DNA of 64,000 nucleotides from Escherichia coli (GTDB lineage: Bacteria; Pseudomonadota; Gammaproteobacteria; Enterobacterales; Enterobacteriaceae): NCBI RefSeq assembly GCF_045037415.1, contig NZ_CP173438.1; one strand, given 5' to 3'. Numbering within the stretch: the stretch's first letter is position 1; each line of letters begins with the position of its first letter. Shown here one piece after another: positions 35,101 through 40,464 of this stretch. Under the pieces are notes generated by a model. That model saw only the letters and a list, made by a program, of their open reading frames with translations, had not been told where the DNA came from and did no database searches. The position numbers and the translations under genes were made by a program.

Positions 35101-36113
35101 TTATTAAACGTTGTCGTGAACTGGCGTTGCGAGCGCCCGCCAGAGTAGTTTTTCCGGATGCGTTAGATCAACGTGTGCTGAAAGCTGCGCAATATTTACA
35201 TCAACAAGGTCTGGCAACGCCCATTCTGGTCGCCAATCCGTTTGAACTTCGTCAGTTTGCGCTCAGTCACGGCGTGGCGATGGACGGGCTACAGGTGATA
35301 GATCCGCATGGCAACCTCGCAATGCGGGAAGAATTTGCTCATCGCTGGCTGGCCCGCGCGGGCGAAAAAACGCCGCCGGATGCGCTGGAAAAACTTACCG
35401 ATCCGCTGATGTTCGCCGCTGCAATGGTCAGCGCCGGTAAAGCGGATGTCTGTATCGCGGGCAACCTCTCTTCCACGGCGAATGTGCTGCGTGCCGGATT
35501 ACGCATTATCGGCTTGCAGCCAGGCTGTAAAACGCTCTCATCCATTTTCCTGATGCTGCCACAGTACAGCGGTCCGGCGTTGGGTTTTGCCGATTGCAGC
35601 GTGGTGCCACAGCCGACGGCGGCACAACTGGCGGATATCGCGCTTGCCAGCGCCGAAACCTGGCGCGCCATCACCGGAGAAGAACCGCGCGTGGCGATGC
35701 TGTCGTTTTCCAGCAACGGTAGTGCCCGTCACCCCTGTGTTGCCAACGTCCAGCAGGCGACAGAAATCGTCCGTGAGCGCGCACCAAAGCTGGTTGTCGA
35801 TGGCGAGTTGCAGTTTGACGCCGCCTTCGTGCCGGAAGTGGCGGCGCAAAAAGCGCCTGCCAGCCCGTTACAGGGCAAAGCTAATGTGATGGTTTTTCCG
35901 TCGCTGGAAGCCGGAAATATTGGCTACAAAATCGCACAACGACTTGGCGGATATCGTGCCGTCGGGCCATTGATACAAGGACTTGCCGCGCCGATGCACG
36001 ATCTCTCTCGTGGTTGTAGCGTGCAGGAAATTATCGAACTGGCGCTGGTGGCAGCTGTGCCGCGTCAGACAGAAGTGAACCGCGAAAGCAGTTTACAAAC
36101 ACTGGTTGAATGA
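35097..36113 (+). CDS. eutD: Ethanolamine utilisation phosphotransacetylase EutD
   Basis: 338 aa PTA-family protein, [34 protein letters not shown]... Confidence 0.95.
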
Positions 36114-36151
36114 ACGGTCCCGTTCTGGACCCTGATAAAGAGGAAAGCACA

Positions 36152-36445
36152 ATGGAAGCATTAGGAATGATCGAAACCCGGGGCCTGGTTGCACTGATTG
36201 AGGCTTCTGACGCGATGGTTAAAGCTGCGCGCGTCAAGCTGGTTGGTGTTAAGCAGATTGGCGGCGGCCTGTGTACTGCCATGGTTCGTGGTGATGTTGC
36301 AGCCTGTAAAGCCGCGACCGATGCAGGTGCCGCAGCGGCACAGCGTATCGGCGAGCTGGTATCTGTACACGTTATCCCGCGTCCGCACGGCGACCTGGAA
36401 GAAGTCTTCCCGATCGGCCTGAAAGGCGATAGCAGCAACCTGTAA
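36152..36445 (+). CDS. eutM: Major BMC shell protein EutM
   Basis: ATG 36152 gives [39 protein letters not shown]..., 97 aa. Confidence 0.97.
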
Positions 36446-36551
36446 TCACCCTGTGTGACGTCGATTCGGGCGTCACGCTCTCTCCTTTTTCATTTTACCT
36501 TCTGCGGAGGGTAGGGGGAGCTTTTACCTGAAATACGCCACGGAGGCGGGT

Positions 36552-36839
36552 ATGAAACTGGCAGTCGTCACTGGACAAATTGTTTGTACCGTACGCCATC
36601 ACGGACTGGCGCATGACAAATTGCTGATGGTGGAAATGATTGATCCACAAGGTAATCCTGACGGGCAATGCGCCGTCGCCATCGACAATATTGGCGCGGG
36701 AACCGGGGAGTGGGTGTTACTGGTGAGTGGCAGTTCCGCCCGCCAGGCGCATAAAAGCGAAACGTCACCGGTCGATCTGTGCGTGATTGGCATTGTCGAT
36801 GAGGTGGTGTCTGGCGGTCAGGTCATTTTCCACAAATAA
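36552..36839 (+). CDS. eutN: BMC vertex (pentamer) protein EutN
   Basis: 95 aa, MKLAVVTGQIVCTVRHHGLAHDKLLMVEMIDPQGNPDGQ... Confidence 0.95.
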   Translation: MKLAVVTGQIVCTVRHHGLAHDKLLMVEMIDPQGNPDGQCAVAIDNIGAGTGEWVLLVSGSSARQAHKSETSPVDLCVIGIVDEVVSGGQVIFHK

Positions 36840-36850
36840 GGCAGAACATC

Positions 36851-38254
36851 ATGAATCAACAGGATATTGAACAGGTGGTGAAAGCGGTACTGCTGAAAAT
36901 GCAAAGCAGTGACACGCCGCCCGCCGCCGTTCATGAGATGGGCGTTTTCGCGTCCCTGGATGACGCCGTTGCGGCAGCCAAAGTCGCCCAGCAAGGGTTA
37001 AAAAGCGTGGCAATGCGCCAGTTAGCCATTGCTGCCATTCGTGAAGCAGGCGAAAAACACGCCAGAGATTTAGCGGAACTTGCCGTCAGTGAAACCGGCA
37101 TGGGGCGCGTTGAAGATAAATTTGCCAAAAACGTCGCTCAGGCGCGCGGCACACCAGGCGTTGAGTGCCTCTCTCCGCAAGTGCTGACTGGCGACAACGG
37201 CCCGACCCTGATTGAAAACGCACCCTGGGGCGTGGTGGCTTCAGTGACGCCTTCCACTAACCCGGCGGCAACCGTAATTAACAACGCCATCAGCCTGATT
37301 GCCGCGGGCAACAGCGTCATTTTTGCCCCGCATCCGGCGGCGAAAAAAGTCTCCCAGCGGGCGATTACGCTGCTCAACCTGGCGATTGTTGCCGCAGGCG
37401 GGCCGGAAAACTTACTGGTTACCGTAACAAATCCGGATATCGAAACCGCGCAACGCTTGTTCAAGTTTCCGGGCATCGGCCTTTTGGTGGTGACCGGCGG
37501 CGAAGCGGTAGTAGAAGCGGCGCGTAAACACACCAATAAACGTCTGATTGCCGCAGGCGCTGGCAACCCGCCGGTAGTGGTGGATGAAACCGCCGACCTC
37601 GCCCGTGCTGCTCAGTCCATCGTCAAAGGCGCTTCTTTCGATAACAACATCATTTGTGCCGACGAAAAGGTACTGATTGTTGTTGATAGCGTAGCCGATG
37701 AACTGATGCGTCTGATGGAAGGCCAGCATGCGGTGAAACTGACCGCAGAGCAGGCGCAGCAACTGCAATCGGTGTTGCTGAAAAATATCGACGAGCGCGG
37801 AAAAGGCACCGTCAGCCGTGACTGGGTTGGTCGCGATGCGGCGAAAATCGCGGCGGCAATCGGCCTTAAAGTTCCGGAACAAACGCGACTGCTGTTTGTA
37901 GAAACCACCGCAGAACATCCGTTTGCCGTGACCGAACTGATGATGCCGGTGCTGCCCGTCGTGCGCGTCGCCAACGTGGCGGATGCCATTGCGCTGGCGG
38001 TGAAACTGGAAGGCGGTTGCCACCACACGGCGGCAATGCACTCGCGCAATATCGAAAACATGAACCAGATGGCGAACGCCATTGATACCAGCATTTTCGT
38101 TAAGAACGGACCGTGTATTGCCGGGCTGGGGCTGGGCGGGGAAGGCTGGACCACGATGACCATCACCACGCCAACCGGTGAAGGGGTAACCAGCGCGCGG
38201 ACGTTTGTCCGTCTGCGTCGCTGTGTATTAGTCGATGCGTTTCGCATTGTTTAA
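36851..38254 (+). CDS. eutE: Acetaldehyde dehydrogenase (acetylating) EutE
   Basis: 467 aa aldehyde dehydrogenase family, MNQQDIEQVVKAVLLKMQSSD... Confidence 0.95.
   Translation: MNQQDIEQVVKAVLLKMQSSDTPPAAVHEMGVFASLDDAVAAAKVAQQGLKSVAMRQLAIAAIREAGEKHARDLAELAVSETGMGRVEDKFAKNVAQARGTPGVECLSPQVLTGDNGPTLIENAPWGVVASVTPSTNPAATVINNAISLIAAGNSVIFAPHPAAKKVSQRAITLLNLAIVAAGGPENLLVTVTNPDIETAQRLFKFPGIGLLVVTGGEAVVEAARKHTNKRLIAAGAGNPPVVVDETADLARAAQSIVKGASFDNNIICADEKVLIVVDSVADELMRLMEGQHAVKLTAEQAQQLQSVLLKNIDERGKGTVSRDWVGRDAAKIAAAIGLKVPEQTRLLFVETTAEHPFAVTELMMPVLPVVRVANVADAIALAVKLEGGCHHTAAMHSRNIENMNQMANAIDTSIFVKNGPCIAGLGLGGEGWTTMTITTPTGEGVTSARTFVRLRRCVLVDAFRIV

Positions 38255-40279: not shown

Positions 40280-40464
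<185 letters not shown>

What the first reader, a model, noticed from the sequence alone, without database searches (positions are those of the whole stretch)
36455..36496. Hairpin plus T-rich tract directly after eutM, before eutN
The 106 bp eutM-eutN spacer contains gtgacg-N10-cgtcac followed by ctctcctttttcatttt. It resembles a weak intrinsic terminator or mRNA-stabilising hairpin placed after the major shell protein gene. Such elements are a known way to make an abundant hexamer protein (EutM) in excess over the vertex protein (EutN) from one transcript.
Basis: inference. Interest (0 to 1): 0.3.

Follow-up and report, generated by a model that had tools for sequence, protein, structure and literature searches.

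The report
Conserved RNA hairpins between eutM and eutN
The hairpin is real and is the first of two tandem, evolutionarily conserved RNA stem-loops in the only long gap of the E. coli ethanolamine operon; they most likely insulate and stabilise the message for the abundant shell protein EutM rather than stop transcription, which is an ordinary kind of operon punctuation not previously described for this operon.

Summary
It is the core of a 10-bp hairpin, HP1 (36453-36478, -17.4 kcal/mol, z -5.6).

The "T-rich tail" is not a terminator tail. HP2 is followed by UUUUACCUGAAAU and the eutN ribosome-binding site.

The spacer is single-copy, unannotated, and present in 5407 of 5426 E. coli genomes. 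HP1 stem bases are 15-16/16 identical in genera where synonymous sites of eutM/eutN are only about 45-67% identical. HP2 and deeper HP1 variants show compensatory changes.

In Salmonella, most Klebsiella and several Citrobacter the same gap holds REP elements or other hairpins. Nearly every sampled eutM is followed within about 10 nt by a stable stem-loop.

By a classical terminator score both E. coli hairpins fall below the 13 clearest terminator-like sites in the window. U-tracts are not conserved and REPs lack them. Published RNA and protein data show eutM > eutN, with recovery at eutE.

Best reading: a 3' protective/insulating hairpin module (differential operon decay, translational uncoupling), at most a leaky terminator. 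It is a new member of a known kind, with modest interest.

The parts
36152..36445 (+). eutM coding sequence (97 aa, major BMC-H shell protein), stop TAA at 36443-36445
   Evidence: NCBIfam NF012018 EutM equivalog, 212.9 bits, full length. RefSeq annotation of an identical E. coli record.
36453..36478 (+). HP1: a 10-bp hairpin, GUGUGACGUC / GGCGUCACGC, with loop GAUUCG, starting 7 nt after the eutM stop. The core inverted repeat GTGACG/CGTCAC is 36455-36460 / 36471-36476.
   Evidence: Energy -17.4 kcal/mol, z -5.58. The core is invariant in 21 type-A spacers, and the pair at 36461/36470 varies U-G/C-G/U-A without ever being broken. Stem bases are 15-16/16 identical where 4-fold sites are 45-67% identical. 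Compensatory variants occur in the Pluralibacter-type locus, L064 and Yokenella. No polymorphism was found in the stem in the sampled Escherichia variants.
36477..36521 (+). HP2: an interrupted hairpin abutting HP1. The outer stem is 36477-36484 with 36514-36521. The inner stem is UACCUUC 36496-36502 with GAGGGUA 36507-36513. The loop is UGCG, 36503-36506.
   Evidence: Energy -19.9 kcal/mol, z -2.54. It appears in the RNAalifold consensus, with compensatory changes at 3 pairs among 16 Escherichia/Citrobacter/Klebsiella spallanzanii sequences. On the model-fitted alignment of 28 matches, 10 of its 15 pairs show double changes.
36522..36534 (+). Single-stranded UUUUACCUGAAAU immediately 3' of HP2. 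ACCUGAA is invariant in Escherichia, Citrobacter, K. spallanzanii, Entomohabitans and three of four Buttiauxella spacers (AUCUGAA in the fourth). It contains an RN|WUU-like GC|UUU site at 36520-36524. TTTTACCT is a direct repeat of 36493-36500.
   Evidence: Alignments A2/A3. The tail is 9-12/12 identical in distant type-A genera. The motif recurs in the Pluralibacter-type locus, and a related form occurs in Silvimonas, L059 and L061. Reading this as an RNase E site is inference from the motif quoted in PMC5927463.
36536..36548 (+). Small 4-bp hairpin CGCC-ACGGA-GGCG overlapping the eutN Shine-Dalgarno sequence GGAGG (36542-36546)
   Evidence: RNAalifold consensus, with U-G/C-G variation at its first pair. 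It is weak, and the eutN initiation region as a whole is not unusually structured (z -0.83).
36552..36839 (+). eutN coding sequence (95 aa, BMC-P vertex protein)
   Evidence: NCBIfam NF011992 EutN equivalog, 210.1 bits. RefSeq annotation.

Best explanation
The eutM-eutN spacer is transcribed as part of the long eut mRNA. It folds into two adjacent stem-loops, HP1 and HP2, followed by a short single-stranded U/A-rich stretch and the eutN ribosome-binding site.

I propose that it acts after transcription as operon punctuation, in three ways.
1. The hairpins start 7 nt after the eutM stop codon and block 3'-to-5' exonucleases (PNPase, RNase II). This would happen once the message has been cut downstream, either in the single-stranded UUUUACCUGAAAU stretch or in the poorly translated eutN segment. 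The heavily translated eutM-containing upstream part would then outlive the eutN part.
2. The structured, untranslated gap prevents terminating eutM ribosomes from re-initiating at eutN, so EutN can be made at about 1% of EutM.
3. Being folded, the gap avoids becoming an RNase E or Rho entry site.

Any transcription termination at HP2-UUUU is at most leaky in E. coli.

**Shown:** the structures exist, are conserved and covary; analogous hairpins occupy the same spot in other lineages; and the terminator features are poor. **Inferred:** the cleavage, the exonuclease block and the uncoupling.
For: **Structure**
- HP1 z = -5.6, HP2 z = -2.5, whole spacer z = -3.2.

**Selection**
- HP1 stem bases are 15-16/16 identical to E. 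coli in Buttiauxella and Entomohabitans, where 4-fold sites are 45-55% identical (P 5e-5 to 9e-4).
- HP1 plus HP2 stems are 41/42 identical in C. werkmanii (P 6e-8). The rest of the spacer is only 23-56% identical.
- Escherichia polymorphisms fall in loops or unpaired bases, and none falls in the HP1 stem.

**Covariation**
- On the model-fitted alignment, 94% of cells pair and 16 of 27 pairs show double changes. No shuffle of 500 reaches this, and slid controls pair at 47-67%.
- RNAalifold finds the same structure independently.

**Functional analogues at the same place**
- REP elements fill the spacer in Salmonella (subspecies enterica, arizonae, diarizonae), Klebsiella pneumoniae and the oxytoca group, and Citrobacter koseri, amalonaticus and sedlakii.
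- Unrelated GC hairpins fill it in Intestinirhabdus, ESL0689 and betaproteobacterial-type loci.
- Among the 22 representative lineages listed, the first strong hairpin starts at most 10 nt after the eutM stop in 21. Across all distinct spacers it does so in most.
- REPs are established 3' stabilisers (malE-malF; PMC5927463).

**Fit to the differential-decay model**
- That model expects the stabilised gene to be the heavily translated one needed in excess.
- EutM:EutN is 96:1 at the protein level. eutM:eutN RNA is 2.9 to 11.

**Not a terminator**
- d = -20 for HP1 and -15 for HP2, against above 0 for the 13 best sites in the window.
- U-tracts are not conserved.
Against: - There is no direct 3'-end, half-life or cleavage data for this operon.
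- In the one RPKM table found, eutM (177) is lower than eutD (357) upstream, and eutE (149) is nearly as high as eutM. An RNA-level effect, if any, is modest and mainly local to eutN.
- An EHEC data set shows the same fold-induction on both sides of the spacer.
- The 96:1 protein ratio cannot be explained by RNA abundance alone.
- From my own knowledge (Liang, Rudd and Deutscher 2015, which I could not read here): stable structures within 15 nt of a stop codon can lower expression of the upstream gene, which would work against EutM.
- REPs may simply colonise any tolerated gap, so their presence is not proof of equivalent function.
- A few lineages (B. noackiae HP1, L061, L059) do have canonical hairpin-plus-U-run geometry.
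Confidence: 0.45

Rival explanations
1. Leaky intrinsic terminator (attenuator). RNA polymerase terminates with partial efficiency at HP2-UUUU (or HP1 plus the CU-rich tract), so eutSPQTDM is transcribed more than eutN-R. The hairpins then also protect the terminated 3' end.
For: - The consensus scan lists HP1 as its top terminator-like hit in 33-40 kb.
- In the alifold structure HP2 ends at 36521 and is followed at once by UUUU.
- Related lineages have clearer geometry: L061 has a GC hairpin plus U5 (d = +11.9), L059 has GGGGA plus U7, and B. noackiae HP1 has UUUCUUU (d = +4.5).
- RPKM falls from eutD/eutM (357/177) to eutN/E/J (62/149/147).
- Proteins downstream of the spacer are at most 39, against 96-100 for EutM and EutQ.
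Against: - d = -20 (HP1) and -15 (HP2) in E. coli, below the 13 clearest terminator-like sites in the window.
- The number of terminator-like hits in the region is no higher than in shuffles (8 against 8.7).
- The U-run is interrupted (UCUCUCC) or short (U4 then ACC).
- The U-tract is absent in Yokenella and Entomohabitans and degenerate in Buttiauxella. ACCUGAA, not the U-run, is the conserved part.
- REP-type spacers have no U-tract.
- eutE RNA recovers to 84% of eutM, and eutH/A/B exceed it.
- The essential lyase genes and the activator eutR lie downstream.
Confidence: 0.2
2. Primarily a translational device for eutN. The long folded gap uncouples eutN from the heavy ribosome traffic on eutM. 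Together with the small SD hairpin and the CU-rich anti-SD-like strands, it sets a low, independent initiation rate for the vertex protein. RNA stability effects are secondary.
For: - Every other junction in the operon except eutG-eutH is tight or overlapping, and only eutM-eutN has this structured 106-nt gap.
- EutN is about 1% of EutM although its RNA is 9-35% of eutM's.
- A conserved 4-bp hairpin overlaps the SD.
- The SD region CACGGAGGCGGGU is conserved in both hairpin-type and REP-type spacers.
Against: - The eutN SD (GGAGG, 5-nt spacing) looks strong, and its initiation region is not significantly structured (z -0.83).
- This reading does not explain why the hairpin sits within about 10 nt of the eutM stop in nearly all lineages, nor the strong sequence conservation of HP1.
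- EutN quantification by proteomics of a 95-aa protein is uncertain.
Confidence: 0.17
3. A specific recognition element or a stable excised RNA. HP1's invariant GUGACG/CGUCAC stem is bound by a protein or RNase. Alternatively, the HP1-HP2-UUUU unit accumulates as an intra-operonic small RNA whose CU-rich loop pairs with Shine-Dalgarno regions.
For: - The HP1 core is conserved at sequence level over distances at which HP2 is remodelled by compensatory change.
- The module ends in a hairpin plus U-run, like Hfq-type sRNA 3' ends.
- CUCUCCUUUUU is complementary to AAAAAGGAGAG.
- Excised operon-internal RNAs are known in E. coli (Dar and Sorek, own knowledge).
Against: - There is no Rfam match, even at E = 10.
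- Deeper lineages do change the HP1 core, with compensation, so structure rather than sequence is what persists.
- REP-type genomes do without the module.
- No literature trace was found.
- The CU-rich strand is paired inside HP2.
Confidence: 0.08
4. No dedicated function. The gap is a tolerated non-coding remnant that happens to contain palindromes and, in other genera, selfish REP insertions.
For: - REPs and an IS911 have inserted here, showing that the site tolerates change.
- One strain carries a stem-breaking G>C in HP2.
Against: - Conservation of stem bases is far above that of synonymous sites.
- Covariation supports a maintained structure.
- The spacer is present in 5407 of 5426 E. coli genomes, at 99% identity or more in 4397.
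- A hairpin follows eutM in essentially all sampled lineages, despite sequence turnover.
Confidence: 0.1

Closest known systems
malE-malF intercistronic REP hairpins and the general 'differential operon decay' mechanism (Newbury et al. 1987; Dar and Sorek 2018, PMC5927463)
   Same: - A stable stem-loop lies just 3' of the gene whose product is needed in excess, inside a polycistronic mRNA.
- The downstream neighbour is poorly translated.
- The structure is conserved among enterobacteria.
- In Salmonella, Klebsiella and some Citrobacter the eutM-eutN gap literally contains REPs.
   Different: - The E. coli element is not a REP. It lacks the GCCGGATG/CTTATCCGGCCTAC consensus and is single-copy per genome.
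- There is no measured half-life difference or mapped 3' end for eut.
- The stabilised part would be the end of a six-gene segment, not the first gene of the operon.
Leaky Rho-independent terminators/attenuators inside operons (for example rpsU-dnaG-rpoD, rplL-rpoB; own knowledge)
   Same: - A GC-containing hairpin is followed by a U-containing stretch between a high-expression and a low-expression gene.
- Some relatives (L061, L059, B. noackiae) have a canonical hairpin-plus-U-run.
   Different: - In E. coli the U-tracts are interrupted or only 4 nt long, with discriminant scores of -20 and -15.
- The U-tract is not the conserved feature.
- Essential downstream genes are expressed at levels comparable to the upstream ones.
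papBA, cfaAB and puf-type segmental mRNA stabilisation of a major structural subunit (cited in PMC5927463)
   Same: - The major structural subunit of a large homo-oligomeric assembly (pilin; here the shell hexamer) is flanked by stem-loops.
- eutM also has a conserved small hairpin (GGUCC-N6-GGACC, 36116-36131) upstream.
   Different: No processed monocistronic eutM transcript has been shown, and the RPKM table does not show eutM above eutD.
ANTAR (EutV)-controlled terminators inside Firmicute eut loci (reviewed in PMC5821096; features from own knowledge)
   Same: They are hairpins within a eut gene cluster that modulate read-through to downstream eut genes.
   Different: - Enterobacterial eut is controlled by EutR and has no EutV.
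- The loops are GAUUCG and UGCG, not two hexaloops with A1/G4.
- HP1 loop length varies from 4 to 19 nt among genera.

Membership tests
Rho-independent (intrinsic) terminator | GC-rich stem of about 5-14 bp with a 3-8-nt loop | tested here: met
   HP1 has 10 bp (6 G-C) and a 6-nt loop. HP2 has a long interrupted stem with an 11-nt internal loop, which is atypical.
Rho-independent (intrinsic) terminator | Uninterrupted U-rich tract (typically at least 5-6 U within 8 nt) immediately 3' of the stem, with a positive hairpin-plus-U-tract discriminant | tested here: not met
   The HP1 tail is UCUCUCCU (nT 2.0, d -20.1). The HP2 tail is UUUUACCU (nT 3.2, d -15.4). The 13 clearest terminator-like sites in the window have d above 0 and T5-T8 runs. 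The formula was recalled from d'Aubenton-Carafa 1990 and used with modern energies, so it serves as a relative ranking only.
Rho-independent (intrinsic) terminator | RNA 3' ends or a coverage step at the U-tract in vivo or in vitro | not testable with these tools
   Only gene-level RPKM was found: eutM 177, eutN 62, eutE 149. No Term-seq data under eut induction were found.
3' protective intercistronic hairpin (differential operon decay) | Stable structure at the 3' boundary of the more abundant or more translated gene | tested here: met
   HP1 (-17.4) and HP2 (-19.9 kcal/mol) start 7 nt after the eutM stop. EutM is 96 and EutN is 1 by proteomics.
3' protective intercistronic hairpin (differential operon decay) | Structure conserved in related species | tested here: met
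   Supported. Analogous hairpins or REPs lie after eutM in the sampled lineages.
3' protective intercistronic hairpin (differential operon decay) | Higher steady-state level and longer half-life of the upstream segment, with decay-generated 3' ends at the hairpin base | tested here: inconclusive
   The eutM/eutN RPKM ratio is 2.9 (induced) and 11 (basal), but eutE recovers and eutD exceeds eutM. Half-lives and 3' ends are not available.
REP / BIME elements | Match to the REP consensus (GCCGGATG...CTTATCCGGCCTAC) and many copies per genome | tested here: not met
   The REP motif has 10 copies in the window, none of them in 36446-36551. The spacer is single-copy per E. coli genome. The REP-type fillings in other genera do match.
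ANTAR-regulated terminator | Two tandem small stem-loops with hexanucleotide loops carrying A at position 1 and G at position 4, plus a cognate ANTAR regulator in the locus | tested here: not met
   The loops are GAUUCG and UGCG, and loop lengths vary among genera. The locus encodes EutR, not EutV/W. The feature definition is from my own knowledge.
Any curated RNA family (Rfam 15) | Covariance-model match | tested here: not met
   No match in 35500-37500, even at E up to 10. The only gathering-level hit in the whole window is naRNA4, in the eutG-eutH REP cluster.

The most novel reading that the evidence does not exclude
The spacer may be an ancient, dedicated RNA module of proteobacterial EUT1 operons, with the layout HP1 - CU-rich linker - HP2 - UUUU(A/G)CC(U/C)GAAAU. 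It is recognisable from Enterobacteriaceae to a betaproteobacterium (Silvimonas) and is functionally replaced by REPs in some lineages. It would actively set the hexamer:pentamer shell stoichiometry. This could work through regulated processing or attenuation, or by releasing a stable intra-operonic RNA whose CU-rich loop targets Shine-Dalgarno regions.
Probability: 0.1. Interest if true: 0.55.

Novelty: new member of a known kind. Interest (0 to 1): 0.33.

Why it matters
How microcompartment operons make about 100 times more facet protein than vertex protein from one transcript is not worked out. Engineered Eut shells are routinely built by cloning eutM and eutN with or without this spacer.

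A conserved RNA element at exactly this junction gives a concrete, mutable handle for setting shell stoichiometry and for testing differential operon decay in an inducible 17-gene operon. The handle consists of HP1, HP2 and the ACCUGAA stretch, and REP swaps offer a further variant.

The replacement of a lineage-specific hairpin by REPs at the same position is also a tidy natural experiment on whether REPs are functional equivalents of dedicated stabiliser hairpins. If the element proves inert, the finding is ordinary operon punctuation.

Tried and rejected
1. **CRP-type site.** The half-sites TGTGA...TCAC are 14 nt apart in E. coli and vary in other genera. This is incompatible with CRP or any fixed-spacing dimer.
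2. **Alternative long-range pairing.** HP1's 5' arm could pair with CGTCAC in eutN codons 5-7 (36566-36571). That hexamer is also present in REP-type genomes and absent from Buttiauxella and Yokenella type-A genomes, so it is simply coding sequence.
3. **Internal promoter.** No sigma-70-like site lies in the spacer.
4. **Small ORF.** A 19-codon frame starts at GTG 36455. It has no SD, and loop indels that are not multiples of 3 break it in Citrobacter.
5. **Minus-strand terminator.** There is no A-run upstream of HP1 on the + strand.
6. **Repeat family or mobile element.** The spacer is single-copy per genome, and the HP1 motif occurs once per locus, always in this spacer.
7. **Known RNA family.** None matched.
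8. **ANTAR substrate.** The loop features are not met.
9. **Literature.** I looked for a prior description or for 3'-end data on eutM-eutN. Nothing was found. Kofoid et al. 1999 is not held, and Liang et al. 2015 could not be read.
10. **Technical failure.** My first terminator-scan script returned nothing because of a wrong ViennaRNA constraint character. It was fixed.
Full report
**1. What is there**

The window is an E. coli chromosome segment carrying the complete eut operon.
- A 100%-identical RefSeq record annotates eutS-P-Q-T-pta(eutD)-M-N-E-J-G-H-A-B-C-L....
- NCBIfam equivalog models confirm EutM (36152-36445) and EutN (36552-36839).
- The gap between them is 106 nt (36446-36551). All other junctions in the operon are overlapping or at most about 45 nt, except eutG-eutH (216 nt).

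**2. Anatomy**

The hairpin, HP1, is longer than described.
- It has 10 pairs, GUGUGACGUC/GGCGUCACGC, at 36453-36478, with loop GAUUCG. Its energy is -17.4 kcal/mol and z = -5.58, with 0 of 200 shuffles as stable. It starts 7 nt after the eutM stop codon.

The T-rich tract is not a free tail.
- In the fold of the whole spacer (-43 kcal/mol, z -3.2) and in the RNAalifold consensus of 16 relatives, it forms the 5' strand and an 11-nt internal loop of a second hairpin, HP2.
- HP2 spans 36477-36521. Its outer stem has 8 bp and its inner stem is UACCUUC/GAGGGUA around a UGCG loop. Alone it folds at -19.9 kcal/mol with z -2.5. It abuts HP1 with no spacer.

Three further pieces follow HP2.
- UUUUACCUGAAAU (36522-36534) is predicted to be single-stranded.
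- A weak 4-bp hairpin lies over the eutN Shine-Dalgarno sequence (GGAGG, 36542-36546).
- The eutN AUG follows.

**3. Is it more than chance, and is it a repeat?**
- The exact pattern is expected 0.08 times per window.
- The spacer is single-copy. It occurs in 5407 of 5426 complete E. coli genomes, at 99% identity or more in 4397, and carries no annotation.
- It matches no Rfam family, even at E = 10.
- Polymorphisms seen in divergent Escherichia lie at 36450 (unpaired), 36465 (HP1 loop), 36485 and 36493 (HP2 internal loop), 36503 (HP2 loop), a G deletion in the G-run at 36514, and one strain-specific G>C at 36518. None touches the HP1 stem.

**4. Comparison across genera**

I fetched 48 loci through EutN from one genome per species and 12 more through EutN homologues. 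eutD-eutM-spacer-eutN-eutE synteny holds throughout, and the spacer is always 52-252 nt. Three kinds of filling occur.

*(a) The E. coli type.*
- It consists of HP1, a CU-rich linker, HP2 or another second hairpin, and (U)UACCUGAA.
- It is found in Escherichia, the Citrobacter freundii complex, Klebsiella spallanzanii, Phytobacter, Buttiauxella and Entomohabitans. A Pluralibacter gergoviae-type locus carries a variant of it, and Yokenella has HP1 only.

*(b) REP elements.*
- They carry GCCGGATGGCG...CTTATCCGGCCTAC, a motif with 10 copies in this window against 0.24 expected.
- They are found in Salmonella enterica (subspecies enterica, arizonae, diarizonae), K. pneumoniae and the oxytoca group, C. 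koseri, amalonaticus and sedlakii, Pseudocitrobacter and a Pluralibacter MAG.

*(c) Unrelated GC-rich hairpins.*
- They are found in Intestinirhabdus, ESL0689, Pseudomonas nitroreducens and betaproteobacterial-type loci.

Two results hold across these types.
- In 21 of 22 representative lineages the first strong hairpin starts at most 10 nt after the eutM stop. Among all distinct spacers a minority, mostly REP-type, start 20-50 nt after it.
- 43 of 44 spacers fold better than their dinucleotide shuffles.

**5. Selection and covariation**
- Against E. coli, HP1 stem bases are 15-16 of 16 identical in Buttiauxella and Entomohabitans. Four-fold degenerate sites of the flanking eutM/eutN are only 45-55% identical there (binomial P 5e-5 to 9e-4).
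- HP1 plus HP2 stem bases are 41/42 identical in C. werkmanii (neutral identity 0.62, P 6e-8). Loops and linkers are 23-56% identical.
- Among close relatives the HP1 core never varies. One internal pair cycles U-G/C-G/U-A without ever breaking.
- Deeper lineages do change the core, with compensation. The Pluralibacter-type locus has GCGUGGCG/CGCCACGC, L064 has GCGUGGUG/UACCACGC, and Yokenella has AUGACG/CGUCAU.
- The HP2 inner stem exists in at least seven complementary versions: UACCUUC/GAGGGUA, UGUUCUC/GAGAGCA, GCCCUC/GAGGGC, GCCGCC/GGCGGC, GCCGUC/GAUGGC, GCUGCC/GGCGGU and GCCGC/GCGGC.
- A covariance model built from 16 close relatives finds the element only in eutM-eutN spacers. It finds none in REP-type loci. 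E-values are 4e-5 to 0.01 for Buttiauxella, 0.003 for the Pluralibacter type, 0.03 for Entomohabitans, and a weak 0.2-0.5 for Silvimonas and L064.
- On the model-fitted alignment, 94% of cells pair and 16 of 27 pairs show double changes. No shuffle of 500 reaches this, and slid controls pair at 47-67%. This alignment leans towards the structure, but RNAalifold on a plain MAFFT alignment gives the same helices.

**6. Is it a terminator?**

I scored every hairpin-plus-T-tract in the window with a d'Aubenton-Carafa-type discriminant. The formula is from memory, so I use it only as a relative ranking.
- Thirteen sites score d above 0; most are short GC-rich stems followed by runs of 5-8 T.
- HP1 scores -20.1 (rank 50 of 1191) and HP2 scores -15.4.
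- The simple consensus scan lists HP1, but the region has no more hits than shuffles (8 against 8.7).
- Across lineages the U-run is not the conserved feature. It is absent after the hairpins of Yokenella and Entomohabitans, degenerate in Buttiauxella, and absent from all REP-type spacers.
- Only three lineages have canonical geometry: B. noackiae HP1 (d +4.5), L061 (d +11.9), and L059 with U7.

Efficient intrinsic termination is therefore unlikely in E. coli. Leaky termination cannot be excluded.

**7. Expression data from papers**
- In E. coli W3110 on ethanolamine plus B12, relative iBAQ abundances are EutQ 100, EutM 96, EutL 39, EutB 37, EutE 27, EutC 24, EutS 11, EutD 10, EutK 8 and EutN 1 (PMC11334477).
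- In AIEC LF82, RPKM (minimal medium / bile salts) are eutD 108/357, eutM 55/177, eutN 5/62, eutE 14/149, eutJ 13/147, eutG 35/168 and eutH 106/514 (PMC6379400).
- RNA does drop across the spacer, 11-fold basal and 2.9-fold induced. It recovers at eutE, and later genes exceed eutM, which a simple terminator would not give. The roughly 100-fold protein difference is mostly translational.
- An EHEC data set shows equal fold-induction on both sides of the spacer.
- I found no 3'-end mapping or half-life data for eut.

**8. Mechanism proposed**

The best fit is the differential operon decay scheme documented genome-wide in E. coli (PMC5927463). In that scheme:
- a heavily translated gene needed in excess is followed by a 3' structure;
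- cleavage is directed to the poorly translated downstream segment; and
- 3'-to-5' exonucleases stop at the structure.

Here HP1/HP2 lie directly after the eutM stop, leaving no exposed RNA between the last ribosome and the barrier. The single-stranded UUUUACCUGAAAU contains an RN|WUU-like site (GC|UUU). eutN is the least expressed gene of the operon. The folded gap would also prevent translational coupling or re-initiation from eutM into eutN and avoid Rho or RNase E entry.

These steps are inferred. What is shown is the structure, its selection, and the positional equivalence with REPs, which are established stabilisers.

My confidences are:
- stabiliser/insulator, 0.45;
- leaky terminator, 0.20;
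- primarily translational control of eutN, 0.17;
- specific recognition element or excised RNA, 0.08;
- no function, 0.10.

**9. Relation to known systems, and novelty**
- It fails the U-tract criterion for intrinsic terminators.
- It is unrelated to the ANTAR terminators of Firmicute eut loci.
- No paper in the searchable library describes it or any comparable element in a microcompartment operon. Kofoid et al. 1999, the original operon paper, could not be read, so prior mention there cannot be excluded.
- I class it as a new member of a known kind. Interest is modest. It gives a concrete handle on shell-protein stoichiometry and a natural hairpin-versus-REP comparison, but the mechanism is conventional and untested.

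**10. Limits**
- Sampling beyond Enterobacteriaceae is thin. The similarity to Silvimonas, L059, L061 and L064 is partly by eye and by weak model scores.
- The sequences are related, so shuffle statistics overstate independence.
- The terminator discriminant is approximate.
- The expression data are gene-level and come from single studies.

Noticed in passing
window 40304-40443 (eutG-eutH spacer): The only other long gap in the operon holds a cluster of four REP motifs (a BIME). It gives the window's only Rfam gathering-level hit, naRNA4 RF02564, at 40333-40414 (75.5 bits). In the LF82 RPKM table, RNA jumps from eutG 168 to eutH 514 across it, which hints at an internal promoter or a stability boundary.
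   Followed up: partly
window 36116-36131 (eutD-eutM spacer): A small hairpin, GGUCC-CGUUCU-GGACC, starts 3 nt after the eutD stop and ends 20 nt upstream of the eutM AUG. It is conserved almost unchanged in both hairpin-type and REP-type enterobacterial genomes but not in Buttiauxella. eutM is therefore flanked by conserved stem-loops on both sides, which could be a 5' stabiliser of a processed eutM segment.
   Followed up: partly
L054 2580-3858 (E. coli strain 90-1); hit H20 (strain EC931): An IS911 copy is inserted in the eutM-eutN spacer just after HP2, at spacer position 79/80, in one strain. Another strain matches only the first 27% of the eutM-eutN query and appears to have a deletion removing eutN.
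   Followed up: partly
window 36493-36500 and 36522-36529: TTTTACCT occurs twice, 29 nt apart, once inside the HP2 internal loop and once right after HP2. Buttiauxella A111 also has two related copies (UUUUACCUGAUU directly after HP1 and UUUAUCUGAAUU near the SD). This suggests HP2 may have arisen by duplication or insertion into an ancestral HP1-UUUUACCUGAA unit.
   Followed up: no
L043 (Klebsiella spallanzanii) versus L029-L031 (K. michiganensis, oxytoca, grimontii): K. spallanzanii carries the E. coli/Citrobacter-type spacer and a EutM 98% identical to E. coli's, whereas its close relatives carry REP-type spacers. This suggests recombination or horizontal exchange of part of the eut operon between genera.
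   Followed up: no
L019, L033, L044 (contigs of 269-466 bp): Tiny contigs assigned to Gemelliphila, a Prolixibacteraceae bacterium and Caballeronia encode enterobacterial EutN at 87-100% identity. They are almost certainly enterobacterial contamination in those assemblies.
   Followed up: no
window 36455-36476 and type-A loci: The 6-bp HP1 core GUGACG/CGUCAC is invariant at sequence level across Escherichia, Citrobacter, Phytobacter, Buttiauxella and Entomohabitans, although the adjacent HP2 is freely remodelled by compensatory change over the same distances. Whether this reflects only the cost of weakening a short stem or sequence-specific recognition is unexplained.
   Followed up: partly
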